A stretch of 64,000 nt of DNA, from sequence record EU863408. One strand, given 5' to 3'. Shown piece after piece: positions 13,453 to 38,730 of this stretch. The notes beneath the pieces were generated by a model, which searched no databases, had not been told where the DNA came from, and saw nothing but the letters and a program-made list of their open reading frames with translations. Position 1 is the first letter of the stretch. Each line of letters begins with the position of its first letter. Made by a program: the position numbers and the translations under genes. The DNA comes from Escherichia phage JSE.

Positions 13453-14223
13453 ATGAATATTATCCGAATAAAACTGCCGGAAGGTGTGCAGAGATTTAAA
13501 CCATTCACGGTAAAAGATTATAGAGATTTCCTTCTGGTGTCAACTGAAATTAAGATGAATCCAGAAGAAGAACAAACGATTCTGGATGAGCTATTAGAAG
13601 AAATATATCCAGAAGTAGATCCGGCATTTCGTGAATATATTTTCCTGAATGTCTTTACTAGCTCAATTGGTAAAACAAAGATACCGCTTTGTTTTACTTG
13701 CCCGACTTGCAACAAAGAAAGAAAAATGTTGCTTAACTTACAGGTTGAAGCACTAAAACCAATCGTTCTAGAGGCCGCAGGGCTTAAAATAACTTTCCGG
13801 TATGTTAAACCATCAACCGACTATGCAAAAACGTTTCTGGATGCGATAGAGCGTGTATCTGATGGTATTAATGATTATCTATGGACTGAATTACCGGAAG
13901 AAGTTAGAGAACAGGTTATCGATTCAATCTCATTTGCTGAATTTGAAGAAGTTGTTAAGCAGATGCACACAATCAAGATCGAACAAAAGATATCTTGTTG
14001 TGAAAGTCATGACCTGAAATACATAGGTCTTCTTCCATTATTCAAATTGTTGTTGAATCCAGATGAGTTATTCATCTTTTATCGAATAAACCATCTATTG
14101 GCAAAATCAAATTATTCTATCAGTGATCTTATGGATATGTTACCGATTGAGAGAAACATTGCACTGACACTGGTCGAGAAAGACGTAAAAGAGGCAAATA
14201 ATGCAAAGAACGGGGTTTCCTAA
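13453..14223 (+). CDS. 51: baseplate hub assembly catalyst gp51
   Basis: 256 aa, T4 order 26-51-27; TATAAATA late promoter at 13425-13432. Confidence 0.85.
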   Translation: MNIIRIKLPEGVQRFKPFTVKDYRDFLLVSTEIKMNPEEEQTILDELLEEIYPEVDPAFREYIFLNVFTSSIGKTKIPLCFTCPTCNKERKMLLNLQVEALKPIVLEAAGLKITFRYVKPSTDYAKTFLDAIERVSDGINDYLWTELPEEVREQVIDSISFAEFEEVVKQMHTIKIEQKISCCESHDLKYIGLLPLFKLLLNPDELFIFYRINHLLAKSNYSISDLMDMLPIERNIALTLVEKDVKEANNAKNGVS

Positions 14224-15311
14224 TGTCTCAATAAAACTTTATCAGGATTATGAGGCATTTCTAAATCATCGCTTTATAGAGTTGGGTGCTACCTTTGTTA
14301 CAATGACTCTGCGTGATTCGATTCGTGGGGTGAATGAAGGATTGTTGCAATTCTATGATAATAAGGCGATGCATACAAAATTAAACGGGAGAGAGATCAT
14401 TCAGATTTCGCTATCCACTGCTAATACAGATGAAGTGTTTAACCGAATCTATGGGATCTCTCATAGTAATGTAACAATTGACCAAAAATCCGACAACATT
14501 TTAACATTCCAGTTAAAGAGCTATCACGAAACACTAAACCTTAAATTTTCTCGCTCATTGACAAATAACGCGGTTAATAACGTAACTAGCATGATTGATG
14601 CCATCTATAAGGAAGTTCCTTTATGGAAACCTACTATAAAGGGTGATAACGTTGTTATTCCTCGTTGTCCGTGGGTTAGTACCATAAATGACTATATGGA
14701 TTTTGTTAGGGCATACGGGCAAAGCGTAGAAACCGAGTCTTTCGTGTATTGCTGGGAAGATTTTGATGGTATAACGATTGCTGGATACGATACAATATTA
14801 AAAAATGAGCCAATACCAGCTATAATCTGTGAGCCTAGACTCATGGGGCAATTTATTGATATGTCGCCTAATCTGATGGTTTTTAATTTTGAGTGGCAGA
14901 CTAAGAGCAATGCTAAAGTTAAAAAATTCATTTAGCAATGTGACATACACCACTATTGATTTTGTTACTAAGCAGTATAATAAAATTATTGTTGGTAATG
15001 GGGATAATATTGCACACTTTGCTCATGGTGGCGCTTATGGCGATTTAACTTATAAGAATGCGTTTTTGGAAGGTTCTAAACTTGCCACAATAGAACAATA
15101 TGATTCATATGCTACCGCCGTGTGTCACGGTAATTTTTCGTTGCGCCCCGGTATGGTTATTCGATTCTTTGATGAGAAGCAACAAGCACGCAATGATTTT
15201 ATTGTTGACGAAGTGGTGCATGAAATTAGCCGAGAGCAATCATTAACTCACCTGTATATGATCGGTAACAGCGAAGAATTACAGGAAGTCAAATTTGAAG
15301 GTAAGATATAA
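14201..15311 (+). CDS. 27: baseplate hub subunit gp27, split by a frameshift at an A6 tract (14921-14926)
   Basis: Track ORFs 14201..14935 and 14889..15311 are the N- and C-terminal parts of T4 gp27; removing one A makes a single reading frame. Confidence 0.8.
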
Positions 15312-15829: not shown

Positions 15830-17559
15830 ATGACGCATTAACATCATTTCGCGGGATGCGCAAGGAAGCGGAAGAAAACCCGATTGATAAACTTAACAAA
15901 TTAGATAAACTTAATTCTATTGATAATTTGCAAGCCGCTACCGAATTGGTGGCAGAGACAGTAGAGCAAAAATCTAATGAAGTTGTTGGTGCGGTCGAGG
16001 ATAACACCGCAGCCAATGAATTGACGGCAGAAAATACACAATCTACCGCTGGCAATACCCAAAAAACTTATGAAGAATTGCAAAAACTCAATAATTTCTC
16101 TTCTCAGATGAATGAGAAATTACGTGGTTTTGGTGTTATGATGGAACGTAGATTTGGTGTTGTCAGTAAAATGGCTAGCGGTATTGGTGCGATTGAAGAA
16201 GCATTGAAAAAACCGGAACAACCGCAAACAATGCCATCACCTCAGCCAGTTTTGCCTACTGTACCGGAACAGCCTAACAATGACAACTATCAAGGTCTTC
16301 CAAAGAAAAAACCAGATGCTGATGACCGAAAGAAAAAGAACGCCACAGATAAGCGTAATGCTGATTCTATGGAAAATCTTCTTAAAGTTGTTCGTGGAGG
16401 ATTTAAAGAAACCATAGGTATCTCTAATAAGGTCTTAGGGATGTTATTTAAGATCACTTTGACCGCTATGGCAGAAGCCGCAAAATGGGGTGCTATTTTG
16501 ATGGGTATTGTTTTTGTCATTGATACCCTGATGGTTCATTTCAGATATTGGAGTGATTTATTCGAAACAAAATTCAATGAATTTATGGATAAGGCCGGAG
16601 GATGGGCTGGTCCTATTAGCGATATTTTAACTACTGTTCGTCAGGTTCGAGATTATTGGTCTAAAGGCGAATATGGAGAGTTAATTAAATCTCTTGTTAT
16701 GGGTATTGGTGATGCATTCTATAAAACCTTTATCCAACTTGATCGAATTATCACTACGGGTATTGCTAAAATTCTTCGTATGATCCCTGGCATGGGTGAT
16801 TATGCCGATAAGTTAGAATATGGTGCTTTAAAATCTGCTGTCGCTCAAGGCTATACGCCAAATGAAAGAGAACTCGAATTAATGGATAAGGTCGAGTCTG
16901 AACACGAAGAAGACAAATATGGAGAGCGCACAGGGTGGACCGGAAAAGCCCGTGATATTGGCGAGGCCATAGGCGAATCTATTAAGGATAAAGTTAACGA
17001 AGGTCTTGTTAGTCTGGGCTGGAGAGATCAAAAGGATGTTGACGCAGAGAAACGACAAGAAGAATTAAAACGCGGAGAATATAAGTCTGTTTCTGCTGAA
17101 CAACGATCTGCTAGTCGTAAACTTAGAATTAAAAGCGAGGGCGCGATCAATAATATTAATGAAGTTATGGAGAATTTGAGCGGTGACTATGACAAAGAAA
17201 GAATGGGAGAGTTGAAAAAGGATATTGATGTTTACCGTGAGCAAGTTCAAGATCCTACATTAGTTGAAAGTGATCGTTCTCAGTTAGAGCGTCTTATTGA
17301 AAAATTTGATGAGATGTATGCTGATAAAACTAAGGGTGTGGTTCCAACTAAATCTGTTCCGGCAACTGAAACGGAAACAGCAAAACAAGCGGAACGTACT
17401 GAACAAATGCAGAAACAAGCTGCAATCCAGCAACAAACGACAAATCAGACCTCAAACGTAAATAATACACAAATTGTAACAAACAATAGAACTATTAAAC
17501 AGGGTGCACCAACAACTAGAATTGATGCCCCAGGTACAATTAATATGGGGAACTTTTAA
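15826..17559 (+). CDS. 29: baseplate hub subunit / tail length determinator gp29
   Basis: 577 aa, size and position as T4 gp29. Confidence 0.85.
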   Translation: MNDALTSFRGMRKEAEENPIDKLNKLDKLNSIDNLQAATELVAETVEQKSNEVVGAVEDNTAANELTAENTQSTAGNTQKTYEELQKLNNFSSQMNEKLRGFGVMMERRFGVVSKMASGIGAIEEALKKPEQPQTMPSPQPVLPTVPEQPNNDNYQGLPKKKPDADDRKKKNATDKRNADSMENLLKVVRGGFKETIGISNKVLGMLFKITLTAMAEAAKWGAILMGIVFVIDTLMVHFRYWSDLFETKFNEFMDKAGGWAGPISDILTTVRQVRDYWSKGEYGELIKSLVMGIGDAFYKTFIQLDRIITTGIAKILRMIPGMGDYADKLEYGALKSAVAQGYTPNERELELMDKVESEHEEDKYGERTGWTGKARDIGEAIGESIKDKVNEGLVSLGWRDQKDVDAEKRQEELKRGEYKSVSAEQRSASRKLRIKSEGAINNINEVMENLSGDYDKERMGELKKDIDVYREQVQDPTLVESDRSQLERLIEKFDEMYADKTKGVVPTKSVPATETETAKQAERTEQMQKQAAIQQQTTNQTSNVNNTQIVTNNRTIKQGAPTTRIDAPGTINMGNF

Positions 17560-25715: not shown

Positions 25716-25744
25716 ATTATAGGGGATCGGTGATCCCCTGTCAA
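25716..25744 (-). promoter_or_regulatory. early promoter with stem-loop spacer (PeSL-like)
   Basis: TTGACA, GGGGATCACCGATCCCC, TATAAT. Confidence 0.6.
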
Positions 25745-26783: not shown

Positions 26784-26812
26784 ATTATGCTATACACAGG
26801 ATCTGGTGTCAA
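26784..26812 (-). promoter_or_regulatory. early promoter (TTGACA-N17-CATAAT)
   Basis: Same cassette family. Confidence 0.5.
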
Positions 26813-26835: not shown

Positions 26836-26862
26836 ATAAAAAAGCCGACGCTAAGGTCGGCT
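26836..26862 (-). terminator. rho-independent terminator
   Basis: AGCCGACC-TTAG-CGTCGGCT then T7 on minus strand. Confidence 0.6.
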
Positions 26863-26869
26863 AATAAAA

Positions 26870-27177
26870 TCATTTAGACAAATAATCATTCAGTGCAATC
26901 CGGTCGGCGTATGCTGGTGTTACGTCAATCGCAATCACTTTAACGCGTGCTTTCTTGCGACCTGGGTTTTCTCGTAACCAGTGCTCATGACCGTGAACAT
27001 TTTATACTGCGATGCTTCTTCGAAAGTACGGATCGGACAAGGGTAATCAGCGTAAAGGATCTCTAGGTCTTCGGTGATGTAAAAATATACATCATAATTA
27101 CTGTTCTCTAGTTTAAGCAGAGACTTTCGGAACATTGGGAGATTTTCGCGGGTAAATTCAAAGATATTATCTTTCAT
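26870..27177 (-). pseudogene. HxHW-family small protein, frameshifted at an A4/T4 tract (26997-27000)
   Basis: Track ORF 26935..27177 carries the family N-terminus (YFYITEDLEI); the C-terminal HGHEHW...VIAIDVTPAYAD lies in another frame. Confidence 0.4.
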
Positions 27178-27227
27178 AGTATTATCCTCAATAGTTGGAT
27201 GAAAAGGGGGGCTTAATGCCCCGTATA

Positions 27228-27561: not shown

Positions 27562-27590
27562 ATTATGCTATACACCCGATCCATTGTCAA
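27562..27590 (-). promoter_or_regulatory. early promoter (TTGACA-N17-CATAAT)
   Basis: GGGTGTAT/ATACACCC palindrome around the -10. Confidence 0.5.
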
Positions 27591-27922
27591 CGCCTTTTTA
27601 TAAAATAATTTTCGATATCTTTATGATGTTTTTCTCGTGCTTGGTCTGCCTCGGCTGGCGATACGTTGGAAGCGATAATCTTCACTACTGTTGCACCTTT
27701 TTCGGTGTCCGACACCCAATGATTATGGAAACCGCTATTATTAAACACTTGATAAGAAAATGATTTAATGTTAGGGAAATTATAAGTGTAATAACGTACC
27801 CTTAATTCTGAATCTACGTATAGATAGATCACCGCACCTAGATAGACCGTCTCACTCGTTCCGTCAACTAACAGTAGAGTATTTCGCAATTCTTCTAAAT
27901 TGTCTTTTGTAAGAAAAATCAT
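27587..27922 (-). CDS. HxHW-family small protein
   Basis: YLYVDSEL ... HNHW ... IASNVSPAEAD. Confidence 0.55.
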   Translation of the reverse strand: MIFLTKDNLEELRNTLLLVDGTSETVYLGAVIYLYVDSELRVRYYTYNFPNIKSFSYQVFNNSGFHNHWVSDTEKGATVVKIIASNVSPAEADQAREKHHKDIENYFIKRR

Positions 27923-27936
27923 AGTATAATCCTCAA

Positions 27937-28272
27937 TTAAACCAAATTAACTTTGGTGTTGTGGTGGTTTTCTCGTGCGTCGTCCGCTTCTTCCGGTGTC
28001 ACGTTACGAGCGACGACAATAACACTTGCTGCCTCTCCGTGATGATAGATCTCTACCCAATGGTTATGATTTGCGAATCCGTGTTTTATTGCGTAAGCGA
28101 ACGGCTTAGACGTCCAGTAGTAACTATAATATCGTACATTTAGATCGCTATCAATGTACAAATATGTGCTGTCGTTTACATTGCCACTAACAACAAAAAC
28201 AAGACAATTGCGAAGATCTGACAATATTTTGTCTGTCAATTTTATAATGTGACTGTTCATAATTAACACCAC
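27937..28272 (-). CDS. HxHW-family small protein
   Basis: YLYIDSDL ... HNHW ... VARNVTPEEAD; tandem with 27587..27922. Confidence 0.55.
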   Translation of the reverse strand: MVLIMNSHIIKLTDKILSDLRNCLVFVVSGNVNDSTYLYIDSDLNVRYYSYYWTSKPFAYAIKHGFANHNHWVEIYHHGEAASVIVVARNVTPEEADDARENHHNTKVNLV

Positions 28273-28478
28273 TCAAGAGTTTTTGAAAACACATCTATCC
28301 ATTGTTGAGTATATGCGGTTTCTTTCCATGACACAATACCAGTCGAATAATGGTTTTTGTTTCCAGAAAAGGACGGGCATTTTGATGCATCTTCCATCAT
28401 CTTTTCGGCGAACTCTGGTTCGTATACCCGCAGAATCTGTTGATATGCTTTGTATTCTTTAAATTTGCTCATAATCAT
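28263..28478 (-). CDS. hypothetical protein
   Basis: 71 aa ORF. Confidence 0.4.
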   Translation of the reverse strand: MIMSKFKEYKAYQQILRVYEPEFAEKMMEDASKCPSFSGNKNHYSTGIVSWKETAYTQQWIDVFSKTLEWC

Positions 28479-28737
28479 TCACTACCTTATCAGCTTCTTT
28501 TGTTGTTTTTACATCAACTGCGATAACCCGTAAAGGTTCGTCATGGTTCCACCAATGATCGTGAATATCGGCTTGTGATTTATCACCAAAGGAATCACGA
28601 ATATCATTTTTACATTTATAGCTAATGTGACCGTCATAGTCAACATAAAGGTAATTATCGAAAATCGGCGTTTTTAAGATCATACCGAAAAATCTTTCTT
28701 TGTGTGTCTTATCCAGTGTTGCAGTAATTCGCATCAT
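28459..28737 (-). CDS. HxHW-family small protein
   Basis: YLYVDYDG ... HDHWW ... VIAVDVKTTKEAD. Confidence 0.5.
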   Translation of the reverse strand: MMRITATLDKTHKERFFGMILKTPIFDNYLYVDYDGHISYKCKNDIRDSFGDKSQADIHDHWWNHDEPLRVIAVDVKTTKEADKVVNDYEQI

Positions 28738-28749
28738 AATATATTCCTC

Positions 28750-28929
28750 TTAGAAAGGGATGGTCATTTCTTGAGCTTGTACATTCTCGTTAGGATTAAA
28801 CTTCATCCAACCGATATTGTCTACCAGCATATGCACATTTTTATCATATCCTACGTGGGTAGTCAATACTGTATGTGCTTTACCTTCAACGATGATTTCC
28901 ATGTACTTCTGAACTTCGATAGCTTTCAT
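28750..28929 (-). CDS. hypothetical small protein (59 aa)
   Basis: GGAGAATCAAA-ATG start context; promoter cassette at 28962-28990; not in track. Confidence 0.4.
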   Translation of the reverse strand: MKAIEVQKYMEIIVEGKAHTVLTTHVGYDKNVHMLVDNIGWMKFNPNENVQAQEMTIPF

Positions 28930-28961
28930 TTTGATTCTCCGTTTGTTGTCTTGATGGGAGT

Positions 28962-28990
28962 ATCTTACTACTCCCTTTAATCATTGTCAA
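28962..28990 (-). promoter_or_regulatory. early promoter cassette, weak -10 (TAAGAT)
   Basis: TTGACA plus GGGAGTA/TACTCCC palindrome. Confidence 0.4.
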
Positions 28991-28993
28991 CTA

Positions 28994-29161
28994 TTATTTG
29001 TTAATTTCCGGTGCGTTGCTTGGATAGTAGCCTTCTTTAACACCCAGATATTTTGCAACCATTCCGGTGATCTTCTGTGCTACTACGATATCGAATTTCA
29101 GGTAGTCTTCACCGTGGTTTGCTACAATGTATGCTTCGCATTCTGCTTTAGTCTGGAACAT
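28994..29161 (-). CDS. hypothetical small protein (55 aa), copy B of a duplicated gene
   Basis: Paralog of 25515..25682; start placed at ATG 29161 because the longer track ORF would include the promoter. Confidence 0.45.
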   Translation of the reverse strand: MFQTKAECEAYIVANHGEDYLKFDIVVAQKITGMVAKYLGVKEGYYPSNAPEINK

Positions 29162-29195
29162 TTTTGATTCTCCTATATCTCGTTGGTATGTGTGC

Positions 29196-29224
29196 ATTAT
29201 AGGGGATCACCGATCCCCTGTCAA
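29196..29224 (-). promoter_or_regulatory. early promoter with stem-loop spacer (PeSL-like)
   Basis: TTGACA, GGGGATCGGTGATCCCC, TATAAT. Confidence 0.6.
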
Positions 29225-29229
29225 CAACT

Positions 29230-29524
29230 TTATAATGCTTTATATGCGTATTTCATAAATTTGTCTGCCACTTCATTGGCATGTTCAGATTCTACGCCTG
29301 ATTCGAGAACAATAGCTAGGTCGGTTTCGTCATTCCCGCCGTACCAATGATTTGATGTTCGATTTTTTTCAATTGGAAATTGGTCACTTTTATCTGTGCG
29401 ACAAAATACATCTAAATGCTCATCGATGTAAAAGATCCAATCTTCATAAAGAATAACGGGTATTAGCAAGATTTTTATTGCCTTCAACGAAAGGTTCGGC
29501 TACAAACAAATTAGTATGTTCCAT
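29230..29524 (-). pseudogene. HxHW-family small protein, frameshifted at an A5/T5 tract (29472-29476)
   Basis: ATG at 29524 with TATAAT and GAGG upstream reads 26 codons then stops; the family body (IFYIDEHL ... SNHW ...) continues in the +1 frame. Confidence 0.4.
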
Positions 29525-29540
29525 AGTAATTTCCTCAAAA

Positions 29541-29732
29541 TTATACAGCTTCGTAAACTTCCCAATGTCCAACACCAGCACGCTTAACGAAAAGGTTTTC
29601 TTTGATGTTATTCATAAACGTCTGGATGGATTTAATGCGGTTTGAAGGTTTCCATTCTTCGTTGGAATTGCGGCGATACATAATAACATTACCAGTTCGC
29701 TTATATTCAGCAACCATTTTAAGACAACACAT
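29541..29732 (-). CDS. hypothetical protein
   Basis: 63 aa ORF. Confidence 0.35.
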   Translation of the reverse strand: MCCLKMVAEYKRTGNVIMYRRNSNEEWKPSNRIKSIQTFMNNIKENLFVKRAGVGHWEVYEAV

Positions 29733-29788
29733 AATATTATCCTCAATTTGTGGGAGAGTATTACCCCTCCCGATGTTGTTATATTACA

Positions 29789-30109
29789 TTACACAAAATG
29801 GCGTGTCAATGCTTCTTTTGCGGTTCCGCTAAGACTTTCGATCTCGCCTGGCATAACATCAACCGCCAGAACTTCTACAACATCCTCGGACCCTAACCAG
29901 TGAGTATGGCCTTTGTAGAACTTGATAACCAGACTACCTTCCTCGTCCCATTTAACGCTATCGCTAGCCCACCACACATCACCGTCGATAAAGTTGATGT
30001 AAAGCACACTACGCCACATTGAATTAATTACTTTCAATACTGCGCCTTTCATCTCTTCCACGGTATGGTCTTCCATTTTGAAGACCTCACCTACCTGAAC
30101 TTTTGCCAT
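29789..30109 (-). CDS. HxHW-family small protein
   Basis: GHTHW ... VLAVDVMPGE; start placed at ATG 30109 right after the stop of the upstream ORF. Confidence 0.5.
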   Translation of the reverse strand: MAKVQVGEVFKMEDHTVEEMKGAVLKVINSMWRSVLYINFIDGDVWWASDSVKWDEEGSLVIKFYKGHTHWLGSEDVVEVLAVDVMPGEIESLSGTAKEALTRHFV

Positions 30110-30110
30110 G

Positions 30111-30377
30111 TTACATGCTCCGAATATGTTTAGCTGCATCTTCCAGTTCGTCGATAGTGACACTGTGTGCCAGTAAGTGTACTGGTTGTGGTTCTTCACC
30201 TTCCATAGTATTGATCAGATGACCGTTTCCTGGGTGGAATGTATCGTTGCCGTTCCAAATAGCATACACATCATCTTCTGTTACGTAGATAATAAGTCCA
30301 ATCGGTGATTCTGGTAATTGAAAAATTTTACCCACTGCATCTTTGCGATTGTTTACGATATCTTTTACTGTCTTCAT
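30111..30377 (-). CDS. hypothetical protein, divergent relative of the HxHW family
   Basis: IYVTEDDVY and LLAHSVTIDELEDA resemble family blocks. Confidence 0.4.
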   Translation of the reverse strand: MKTVKDIVNNRKDAVGKIFQLPESPIGLIIYVTEDDVYAIWNGNDTFHPGNGHLINTMEGEEPQPVHLLAHSVTIDELEDAAKHIRSM

Positions 30378-37162: not shown

Positions 37163-38347
37163 TTACCAATCAATCTTATCAGCCGGAATCAGTTTCTTAT
37201 AATTCCGTAGATAGTAAGTTTTCATTGAAGCCAGAATACGGTCATAATCAAGACCATCAAATGCAATCATCAGACACATGAAAATATATGATTGTGCATC
37301 ACCATGTTTACGTGATTCGATAGTCGCATTGGATGCATATGTCTTTCTGTCTTCTCCCGCGTGTGCGTTATAAAATTCTGTTGCTGTCGTAAAGGCATTG
37401 CGAAGAATGGACCTGAATGCTTCCTCGAATAGCTCAATTCGTTCCAGTGCTTCCGGTTCGCCTTCATATGCAGCACGCAAATCATCGGTTTCGCTTTCTA
37501 CGACATAGTAGATCAGGTTATTAGGAAACATCGATGTGTTTTTAATGTTATGCACACCAATATACCATTCACTCTTCACCTTGAACATTTGACCGTCTTT
37601 AGTGCGTGCAACAATTCCTTCGATACCTTCTGCGGTCCGAACTTCATCAAGAATATTGCTAAAACGCGCTGAATCAACCTGTAACGCATTTACCAGATGA
37701 GGACGTAGGATTGCGTCAGCAAATAGCATTTGATGCGGTACGTACTCTCCTGTGACGTTATGGCGTACATTCAGAAGTGTTAGCGACGGTTCAGAATATT
37801 CTACAACAATTCGGTTGCTGGGTGCTGTATATTCAAAGTTGAAAGTATAATCAGACCCAATATCGGCGATCTTAGCGCGTAGATCCGCATACTTCTCTGA
37901 ATACAGAAGACCGTTTGCTCTCTCTGCCTGGCTTGAGTACAAGGCCGCTTTAGACTTCAACTGAACATAGCCGTTATCAATGTATGTGCTTACTAGACTA
38001 CCGTCCATTTTGTCCATGACCATTTCCACATCTTCCGGCTTAAAGCGAGCGCGATCATTCTCACCCAAATTAAAAAACTTCTCCATAGGACGAGATGCAA
38101 TGCGGACAGGTCGGTCTTTATCATCGATTTCAAACATGATCCCGCGACACTCTAACGCATCTGGTTTATTCCACATTTCCGGTTTGCTCAAGTACAGATA
38201 ACTAAAAATGCGCATACGGGTTTGCATCGCCGTAATTTCATCTTTGTAATAGAACGTATCAGATCCGTCACATAGTGCCATCAGATTTTTGAACAATGCT
38301 AAAACTTTTTTTGTTGTTTTCTTTTGTTGACATAATTTGTGTTCCAT
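37163..38347 (-). CDS. rnlA: RNA ligase 1
   Basis: Colinear with T4 Rnl1 (PDALECRGIMFE, RIASRPMEKFFNL). Confidence 0.9.
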   Translation of the reverse strand: MEHKLCQQKKTTKKVLALFKNLMALCDGSDTFYYKDEITAMQTRMRIFSYLYLSKPEMWNKPDALECRGIMFEIDDKDRPVRIASRPMEKFFNLGENDRARFKPEDVEMVMDKMDGSLVSTYIDNGYVQLKSKAALYSSQAERANGLLYSEKYADLRAKIADIGSDYTFNFEYTAPSNRIVVEYSEPSLTLLNVRHNVTGEYVPHQMLFADAILRPHLVNALQVDSARFSNILDEVRTAEGIEGIVARTKDGQMFKVKSEWYIGVHNIKNTSMFPNNLIYYVVESETDDLRAAYEGEPEALERIELFEEAFRSILRNAFTTATEFYNAHAGEDRKTYASNATIESRKHGDAQSYIFMCLMIAFDGLDYDRILASMKTYYLRNYKKLIPADKIDW

Positions 38348-38730
38348 TCTGGTTTAAATTTGGTGATCAAAACAGGTTCTTCGATATCGGCAGTGCTTAT
38401 AATATCTTTACCCGTTGGATTCTCGATGTACAACTCAAAGCATTGGCGGTAATAGAATGTTACTGTCTTACCTTCCTCTAGCGCCTTATGAATATTCTTA
38501 CTCTTGCGAGTATCCGCTGTTGGTGTTTGTCTGTTAATGCTCGTCCGGTAATAATTGATCCGCTTTCTGAGATTAACAGTCTGACCAATGTATACCAGTT
38601 CATCATCAACCACAATAGCGTAAAGAACATTTAAACGGTTTTTCTGAGGCGGTAGAATCACATCACCATCTTTACACTCTAAACATGAATATTTAACGAA
38701 TCCATAGTTTTCTATTAGCTCATTAATCAT
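38299..38730 (-). CDS. GIY-YIG nuclease domain protein
   Basis: VLYAIVVDDELVYIGQTVNLRKRINYY matches the GIY-YIG core; only 143 aa. Confidence 0.55.
   Translation of the reverse strand: MINELIENYGFVKYSCLECKDGDVILPPQKNRLNVLYAIVVDDELVYIGQTVNLRKRINYYRTSINRQTPTADTRKSKNIHKALEEGKTVTFYYRQCFELYIENPTGKDIISTADIEEPVLITKFKPEWNTNYVNKRKQQKKF

What the first reader, a model, noticed from the sequence alone, without database searches (positions are those of the whole stretch)
26990..27010. Frameshift inside an HxHW-family gene at an A4/T4 tract
The ORF starting at 27177 has the family N-terminus but stops at about 26935, while the conserved HGHEHW...VIAIDVTPAYAD C-terminus lies in a different frame and runs to about 26870. 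The frames could be joined by adding one A at the run at 26997-27000. This is the second homopolymer-associated frame break in the window, so it is either a systematic homopolymer error or a pseudogenised paralog.
Basis: seen in the sequence. Interest (0 to 1): 0.4.

Follow-up and report, generated by a model that had tools for sequence, protein, structure and literature searches.

The report
One-base frame break in phage JSE
A small phage gene of unknown function is split by one missing A that every relative has. The same record also splits an essential baseplate gene in this way, so this is most likely a sequencing error, or otherwise an ordinary dead gene.

Summary
The window is Escherichia phage JSE, an RB49-like Krischvirus. 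On the minus strand, an 80-aa ORF (27177..26935, deposited as EpJSE_00203) carries the N-terminal 59 residues of the RB49 ORF197 family (phrog_9345). The conserved C-terminal 43 residues (NVHGHEHW...DYLSK) sit in the -1 frame (27001..26870) and have no start codon of their own.

All 46 related phage records, and all 16 homologous loci I aligned directly, have A5 and one intact 100-103-aa gene. No collection searched holds the A4 form.

The window has at least four JSE-private one-base run-length frame breaks:
- gp27 baseplate hub, essential in T4: A6 instead of A5 at 14921-14926
- this gene
- a second small gene at 29458-29460
- the denA/rnlA overlap at 38306-38312

RB49 and Phi1 have none over the same region.

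Nothing supports programmed frameshifting: there is no slippery heptamer, no downstream structure and no conservation of the split.

Best reading: a homopolymer miscall in the deposited sequence (about 0.6). Rival: a real, recent inactivating mutation in a dispensable gene (about 0.35). Either way the finding is ordinary.

The parts
26870..27177 (-). Whole gene unit: the JSE homologue of RB49 ORF197 (RB49p197, phi1p197; phrog_9345). It is 308 nt here and 309 nt in relatives.
26935..27177 (-). The 80-aa ORF as deposited (EpJSE_00203, ACL78152.1). Residues 1-59 belong to the family; residues 60-80 are out-of-frame sequence.
26870..27001 (-). C-terminal 43 codons plus stop in the -1 frame. They hold the family's invariant H-x-H-W and A/D-V-T-P-x-x-A-D motifs. 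There is no start codon until a GTG 22 codons before the end.
27000..27003 (-). A4 run (T4 on the + strand) where every relative has A5. This is the site of the frame break.
27037..27039 (-). Codon 47 is TGT (Cys). It is private to JSE; all orthologues have GGT (Gly) in YPGPIR.
27185..27189 (-). GAGGA Shine-Dalgarno sequence, 7 nt upstream of the ATG at 27177.
   Evidence: sequence
26843..26862 (-). Terminator-like hairpin followed by a T-run, 7 nt after the stop codon of the full-length reading frame. It marks the end of the single-gene unit.
27208..27222 (-). Terminator-like hairpin of the upstream gene. It marks the 5' boundary of the unit.

Best explanation
The break is most likely an artefact of the deposited phage JSE sequence: a one-base under-call of an A5 homopolymer, recorded as A4. 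On this reading the real phage encodes a normal 102-aa ORF197-family protein from a single gene with its own ribosome-binding site and terminator. Shown: the one-base difference, that it is private to JSE, that the downstream frame is perfectly conserved, and that the same record carries other run-length frame breaks, one of them in an essential gene. Inferred: that the difference arose during sequencing or assembly rather than in the phage.
For: 1. The window is phage JSE. The 80-aa product, the split gp27 pieces and the 26-aa fragment are exact matches to JSE proteins, and the two fragment proteins form singleton clusters.
2. All 46 related phage records span 67 nt where the query has 66. 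All 16 homologous loci read directly have CAGTATAAAAATG, i.e. A5.
3. The A4 form is absent from IMG/VR and GTDB genomes. The 4 hits in JGI metagenome contigs are unrelated chance matches.
4. JSE gp27 is split at GTTAAAAAATTC (A6, 14921-14926) into 244-aa and 133-aa pieces. The named members listed from its 141-member cluster (RB49, KFS-EC, G2248, Brandy, UPWr_E1 and others) are 369 aa apart from the JSE pieces and one 236-aa Salmonella assembly entry, and 4 of 4 aligned relatives have A5. T4 gene 27 is essential (established T4 genetics), so a plaque-forming phage should not carry this break. The record therefore contains run-length errors.
5. Two more JSE-private one-base run-length breaks exist: G3 at 29458-29460 and T7 at 38306-38312 in the denA/rnlA overlap.
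6. A symmetric screen over the same region found 4 breaks in real genes in JSE, 0 in RB49, 0 in Phi1, none flagged in kvi core genes, and 2 in Cognac.
7. The affected share rises with run length: 1 of 6 seven-base runs, 1 of 44 six-base runs, 1 of 741 four-base runs.
8. Downstream of the break there is no decay. All 43 codons are 100% identical in protein to GEC-3S and kaaroe, and there are 0 nucleotide differences from kaaroe.
Against: 1. The gene lies in a dispensable hyperplastic region, and some relatives, such as Cognac, lack it.
2. Phage kvi has an independent one-base deletion in the same gene (GAAAA-CCAGG) in a region that is otherwise clean, so real frameshift inactivation of this gene seems to happen.
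3. JSE has a private Gly47Cys change at a residue invariant in all orthologues, which would fit relaxed constraint.
4. Two of the four breaks hit small genes of the hyperplastic region, more than a uniform error process would predict.
5. A rough rate estimate gives about 1-2% for an error landing in this gene's two 5-base runs. One real case among about 46 genomes, or among about 170 protein sequences, gives 0.5-2%. That favours error only modestly.
6. I could not establish the sequencing platform of JSE from the papers held.
Confidence: 0.6

Rival explanations
1. A real, recent loss-of-function mutation: polymerase slippage shortened A5 to A4 in a dispensable hyperplastic-region gene of the JSE lineage, perhaps fixed during plaque purification or lab propagation. 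The result would be an 80-aa truncated product lacking the invariant HxHW motif and the C-terminal strand and helix, i.e. a young pseudogene.
For: The gene is accessory and is absent from Cognac. kvi carries an independent frameshift in the same gene, while the core genes in its 50 kb are intact. JSE has a private Gly47Cys at an invariant position. A second small gene of the same region is also broken in JSE. Real indels also favour homopolymers.
Against: The same record has a break of the same kind in essential gp27, which cannot be real. There is no decay downstream of the break. The A4 allele appears in no other genome, metagenome or protein cluster. Apart from JSE and kvi, all 35 other orthologue clusters are full length.
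Confidence: 0.35
2. Programmed recoding: the full-length protein is made from the A4 allele by -1 ribosomal frameshifting (tRNA-Lys slipping on U-AAA-A) or by transcriptional slippage. This would yield both an 80-aa and a 102-aa product.
For: A -1 shift at UAU AAA AUG would give exactly the orthologue sequence QYK-N-VHGHEHW (sequence).
Against: There is no X XXY YYZ heptamer: the zero-frame codons are UAU AAA AUG, and slipping AAA back gives UAA. The downstream 111 nt fold no better than shuffled sequence (z -0.16). A4 is far shorter than the roughly 8-9-base runs known to drive RNA polymerase slippage (established knowledge). No relative has the two-frame layout; all 46 are in frame, so nothing is conserved for selection to act on.
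Confidence: 0.02
3. Two genuine separate genes: an 80-aa gene and an independently translated C-terminal mini-gene.
For: None beyond the existence of the two open frames.
Against: The C-terminal frame has no ATG, GTG or TTG until a GTG 22 codons before the stop, and no ribosome-binding site. All orthologues are single ORFs of 100-103 aa. The AlphaFold model is one compact domain that spans the break.
Confidence: 0.01

Closest known systems
RB49 ORF197 / Phi1 ORF197 (RB49p197 NP_891768.1, phi1p197 YP_001469542.1), PHROG family phrog_9345, function unknown
   Same: Same position between the ORF198 and ORF194 homologues. Nucleotide identity is 91-98%. With one A added, the protein matches the profile end to end.
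   Different: JSE has A4 instead of A5, so the deposited ORF is 80 aa instead of 102. JSE also has Cys instead of the invariant Gly47.
Homopolymer run-length errors in deposited phage genomes, for example the split gp27 in JSE and the split gp28 and nrdB in phage Cognac
   Same: A single-base length change in an A/T run, private to one record, splitting a gene that is intact in all relatives.
   Different: This gene is non-essential, so unlike gp27 the break is not biologically impossible. An error is inferred, not proven.
kvi_65 of Escherichia phage kvi (QHR71544.1, 85 aa)
   Same: The same gene, also truncated by a one-base deletion at a short run (GAAAACCCAGG to GAAAACCAGG).
   Different: The site is 35 nt downstream, the event is independent, and no frame breaks were flagged in real genes across the surrounding 50 kb of kvi.
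Programmed -1 ribosomal frameshift sites, for example dnaX A AAA AAG and the tail-chaperone G/GT sites of other phages
   Same: Two overlapping frames that a -1 shift on a Lys codon would join.
   Different: There is no slippery heptamer, no stimulatory structure, and no conservation of the split among relatives.

Membership tests
phrog_9345 / RB49 ORF197 family | Full-length match to the family profile | tested here: met
   The corrected 102-aa protein covers profile positions 1-102 of 106 at E 6.8e-49. The paralogues at 27587..27922 and 27937..28272 also match.
phrog_9345 / RB49 ORF197 family | Invariant Y33, H64-x-H66-W67 and A83 | tested here: met
   These residues are present only when the two frames are joined. 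The 80-aa deposited product lacks H64, H66, W67 and A83.
phrog_9345 / RB49 ORF197 family | Same genomic position as the orthologues | tested here: met
   The gene is flanked by the 95-aa (ORF198) and 89-aa (ORF194) homologues, as in RB49, Phi1, GEC-3S, kaaroe, G2494 and the metagenome contigs.
Sequencing or assembly homopolymer error | Run-length difference private to one record | tested here: met
   0 of 46 records, 0 of 16 aligned loci and 0 hits in the collections carry A4.
Sequencing or assembly homopolymer error | Other run-length breaks in the same record, including in genes that must be intact | tested here: met
   gp27 is split at an A6 run where relatives have A5. Further breaks lie at 29458-29460 and 38306-38312. 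RB49 and Phi1 have none.
Sequencing or assembly homopolymer error | Read-level or re-sequencing disagreement with the deposited base count; an error-prone platform | not testable with these tools
   No reads are available. The JSE genome paper (Denou et al. 2009, Virology) is not in the held library, and the other papers found do not state the platform.
Pseudogene (real inactivation) | ORF disrupted relative to intact orthologues | tested here: met
Pseudogene (real inactivation) | Further signs of relaxed constraint | tested here: inconclusive
   There is one private replacement at an invariant Gly. Against this, there are 0 changes in the 43 downstream codons, and 5 synonymous to 1 non-synonymous differences from kaaroe.
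Programmed -1 ribosomal frameshift | Slippery heptamer X XXY YYZ in the zero frame | tested here: not met
   The zero-frame codons are UAU AAA AUG, which contain no such heptamer.
Programmed -1 ribosomal frameshift | Downstream stimulatory RNA structure | tested here: not met
   Minimum free energy is -23.9 kcal/mol against a shuffle mean of -23.4; z = -0.16.
Programmed -1 ribosomal frameshift | Two-frame arrangement conserved in relatives | tested here: not met
   All relatives are in frame.

The most novel reading that the evidence does not exclude
The break is real, and together with the independent break in phage kvi it shows that ORF197-type genes of the Krischvirus hyperplastic region are repeatedly switched off by run-length changes. 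That would mean contingency-like on/off variation of a tandem family of small HxHW proteins whose predicted fold has no solved relative, possibly host-range or anti-defence accessories.
Probability: 0.05. Interest if true: 0.35.

Novelty: not a real feature. Interest (0 to 1): 0.07.

Why it matters
It matters little biologically. In practice, the JSE reference record (NC_012740 / EU863408 per the cited papers) appears to contain several one-base homopolymer errors in this 64-kb stretch. These split gp27, ORF197 and an ORF206-like gene, and alter the denA/rnlA junction. They have seeded singleton fragment proteins in the protein databases (EpJSE_00203, EpJSE_00212 and the two gp27 pieces). Anyone using JSE for comparative genomics, or as a phage-therapy reference, should treat these as probable artefacts. 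If the ORF197 break is real, it is only one more dead accessory gene.

Tried and rejected
- I searched IMG/VR, JGI metagenome contigs and GTDB genomes for the A4 allele and for the JSE-specific Cys47 haplotype. Nothing relevant turned up; the 4 metagenome hits were unrelated chance matches.
- An exact look-up of the 80-aa product on contigs found nothing.
- I looked for independent JSE-like assemblies through neighbouring proteins. All 11 contexts found carry an intact 102-aa gene where the contig reaches it, and none has the JSE haplotype.
- I tried to find the sequencing platform of JSE in the literature. The genome paper is not held and the other papers do not say.
- My first tblastn screen used composition-based statistics and missed the gp27 and denA breaks. 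I repeated it without them.
- The raw blastn indel list was too noisy in diverged stretches to use directly.
- Programmed frameshifting and the two-gene reading were considered and rejected, as set out under the rival explanations.

Full report
**What is in the sequence.** On the minus strand, an ATG at 27177 preceded by GAGGA opens an 80-aa ORF that stops at 26937-26935. One frame over (-1), codons from 27001 to the TGA at 26872-26870 read NVHGHEHWLRENPGRKKARVKVIAIDVTPAYADRIALNDYLSK. That frame is closed just upstream by TAA (27004-27002). It has no ATG, GTG or TTG until a GTG 22 codons before its end. The two frames meet at an A4 run on the coding strand, which is T4 at 27000-27003 on the + strand. 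A terminator-like hairpin with a T-run (26862-26843) follows the stop of the long frame, and another hairpin (27222-27208) closes the upstream gene. The layout is therefore that of one gene unit.

**Where the window comes from.** Megablast places the window in the genus Krischvirus (RB49-like T4-type coliphages), with no identical record in the phage collection. Exact protein look-ups identify it as Escherichia phage JSE, 166,418 bp. The 80-aa product is EpJSE_00203 (ACL78152.1 / YP_002922275.1), a singleton cluster.

**Comparison with relatives.**
- The orthologue is annotated as a single 309-nt CDS (102 aa) in G2494, kaaroe, GEC-3S, RB49 (RB49p197) and Phi1 (phi1p197), and as a 306-nt CDS (101 aa) in UPWr_E1.
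- DNA alignments show TATAAAAATG (A5) in every relative and TATAAAATG (A4) in the window.
- All 46 phage records that match a 66-nt query across the site align over 67 nt.
- All 16 homologous loci I read directly, from GenBank phages, ENA metagenome scaffolds and Logan contigs, have A5.
- Of 37 protein clusters found with the corrected protein, 35 are 100-103 aa. The two short ones are JSE (80 aa) and kvi_65 (85 aa).
- The A4 allele was not found in IMG/VR or GTDB genomes. The four JGI metagenome hits are unrelated sequences.
- With one A added, the JSE protein matches phrog_9345 over its full length (E 6.8e-49). Downstream of the break it is 100% identical to the GEC-3S and kaaroe proteins.

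**Is it recoding?** No. The zero-frame codons UAU AAA AUG contain no X XXY YYZ heptamer. Slipping tRNA-Lys back one base would pair it with UAA. The 111 nt downstream fold no better than shuffled sequence (z = -0.16). Four A's are far too few for transcriptional slippage (established knowledge). Nothing is conserved among relatives that selection could act on.

**Error or real mutation?** I screened ORFs from five relatives against the window with tblastn, and screened private indels with blastn.
- The window holds four one-base run-length changes that are private to JSE and break real genes:
  - gp27 baseplate hub at 14921-14926, A6 against A5 in 4 of 4 relatives
  - this gene
  - an ORF206-like small gene (phrog_15965) at 29458-29460, where the coding strand reads AATACCCGTT against AATACC-GTT in RB49 and Cognac
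  - the denA/rnlA overlap at 38306-38312, A7 against A6 on the coding strand, which shortens denA to 143 aa and moves the rnlA start
- JSE's gp27 is deposited as two CDSs of 244 and 133 aa. The named members listed from its 141-member cluster are 369 aa, apart from those two pieces and one 236-aa Salmonella assembly entry.
- Gene 27 is essential in T4 (established genetics). A plaque-forming phage should not carry this break, so the record contains at least one run-length error.
- The same screen gives 0 breaks in real genes for RB49 and Phi1, none flagged in kvi, and 2 for Cognac (gp28 and nrdB).
- The affected share rises with run length: 1 of 6 seven-base runs, 1 of 44 six-base runs and 1 of 741 four-base runs.
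- Downstream of the ORF197 break there is no decay at all.

All of this favours an artefact.

**What points the other way.**
- The gene lies in the hyperplastic region between alt and gene 30, with promoter-stem-loop cassettes of the kind described for RB49 and Phi1 (PMC4122927). One example is TTGACA-GGGGATCGGTGATCCCC-TATAAT at 29224-29196.
- Some relatives lack the gene, for example Cognac.
- Phage kvi carries an independent one-base deletion in the same gene (GAAAA-CCAGG), and no other real gene in its 50 kb was flagged as broken.
- JSE has a private Gly47Cys (GGT to TGT, 27039-27037) at a residue invariant in all orthologues.
- A rough comparison of rates favours error only modestly. Taking the two breaks in core genes as errors gives about 0.8% per run of 5 bases or more. 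That is 1-2% for this gene's two such runs, against 0.5-2% for a real frameshift (one case among about 46 genomes or about 170 protein sequences).
- I could not find which platform was used for JSE. The genome paper is not held.

My estimates are 0.6 for an artefact, 0.35 for a real recent frameshift, 0.02 for recoding and 0.01 for two genes.

**Verdict.** The finding is accurate but ordinary. The break is private to JSE and is one of several run-length breaks in that record. It is most likely a homopolymer miscall, and otherwise a young pseudogene in a dispensable region. Re-sequencing about 200 bp would settle the question.

Noticed in passing
window 14201-15311 (+), run at 14921-14926: The essential baseplate hub gene gp27 is split into ORFs 14201..14935 (244 aa) and 14889..15311 at an A6 run. 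RB49, Phi1, UPWr_E1 and Cognac have A5 and a single 369-aa gene. JSE's GenBank record annotates two 'gp27' CDSs (ACL78132.1 and ACL78133.1). This is almost certainly a sequence error.
   Followed up: yes
window 29230-29523 (-), run at 29458-29460 (+ strand GGG): A second small gene of the hyperplastic region (ORF206-like, phrog_15965, with an S-N-H-W motif) is split by a one-base insertion: AATACCCGTT against AATACC-GTT in RB49 and Cognac. The 26-aa N-terminal piece is deposited as EpJSE_00212, a singleton cluster.
   Followed up: yes
window 38299-38347 (-), run at 38306-38312: A7 on the coding strand against A6 in 4 of 4 relatives, inside the 65-nt denA/rnlA overlap. In JSE, denA ends early (143 aa instead of 153) and rnlA is read from a different upstream ATG (394 aa instead of 389).
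   Followed up: partly
L011 / L016 (phage kvi, MN850615.1), kvi_65: There is an independent one-base deletion in the same ORF197 gene (GAAAACCCAGG to GAAAACCAGG), giving an 85-aa product. No other real gene in the surrounding 50 kb of kvi was flagged as frame-broken.
   Followed up: partly
L005 (phage Cognac, MZ504877.1) about 16370-16430 and 38470-38700: Cognac's gp28 (122 aa against 172) and nrdB (split into 972-nt and 228-nt CDSs) are frame-broken relative to four other genomes. These look like assembly errors in that record.
   Followed up: partly
window 27587-30377 (-): A tandem array of small paralogous genes shares an invariant H-x-H-W motif and a V-x-A-x-D-V-T-P-x-x-A-D tail. The predicted fold is confident but has no PDB relative, and the function is unknown.
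   Followed up: partly
window 29196-29224 (-), and similar sites near 25730, 26784-26812 and 30620: Early-promoter and stem-loop cassettes (TTGACA, then a GC-rich hairpin, then TATAAT) sit between the small genes. They match the PeSL elements described for RB49 and Phi1 hyperplastic regions (PMC4122927).
   Followed up: no
window 3767, 3884, 3938, 6388, 6397, 39215, 44762, 47259: Further JSE-private one-base indels relative to all aligned relatives. By position they lie mostly in intergenic stretches, several of them in short runs. I did not determine whether they are natural variation or errors.
   Followed up: no
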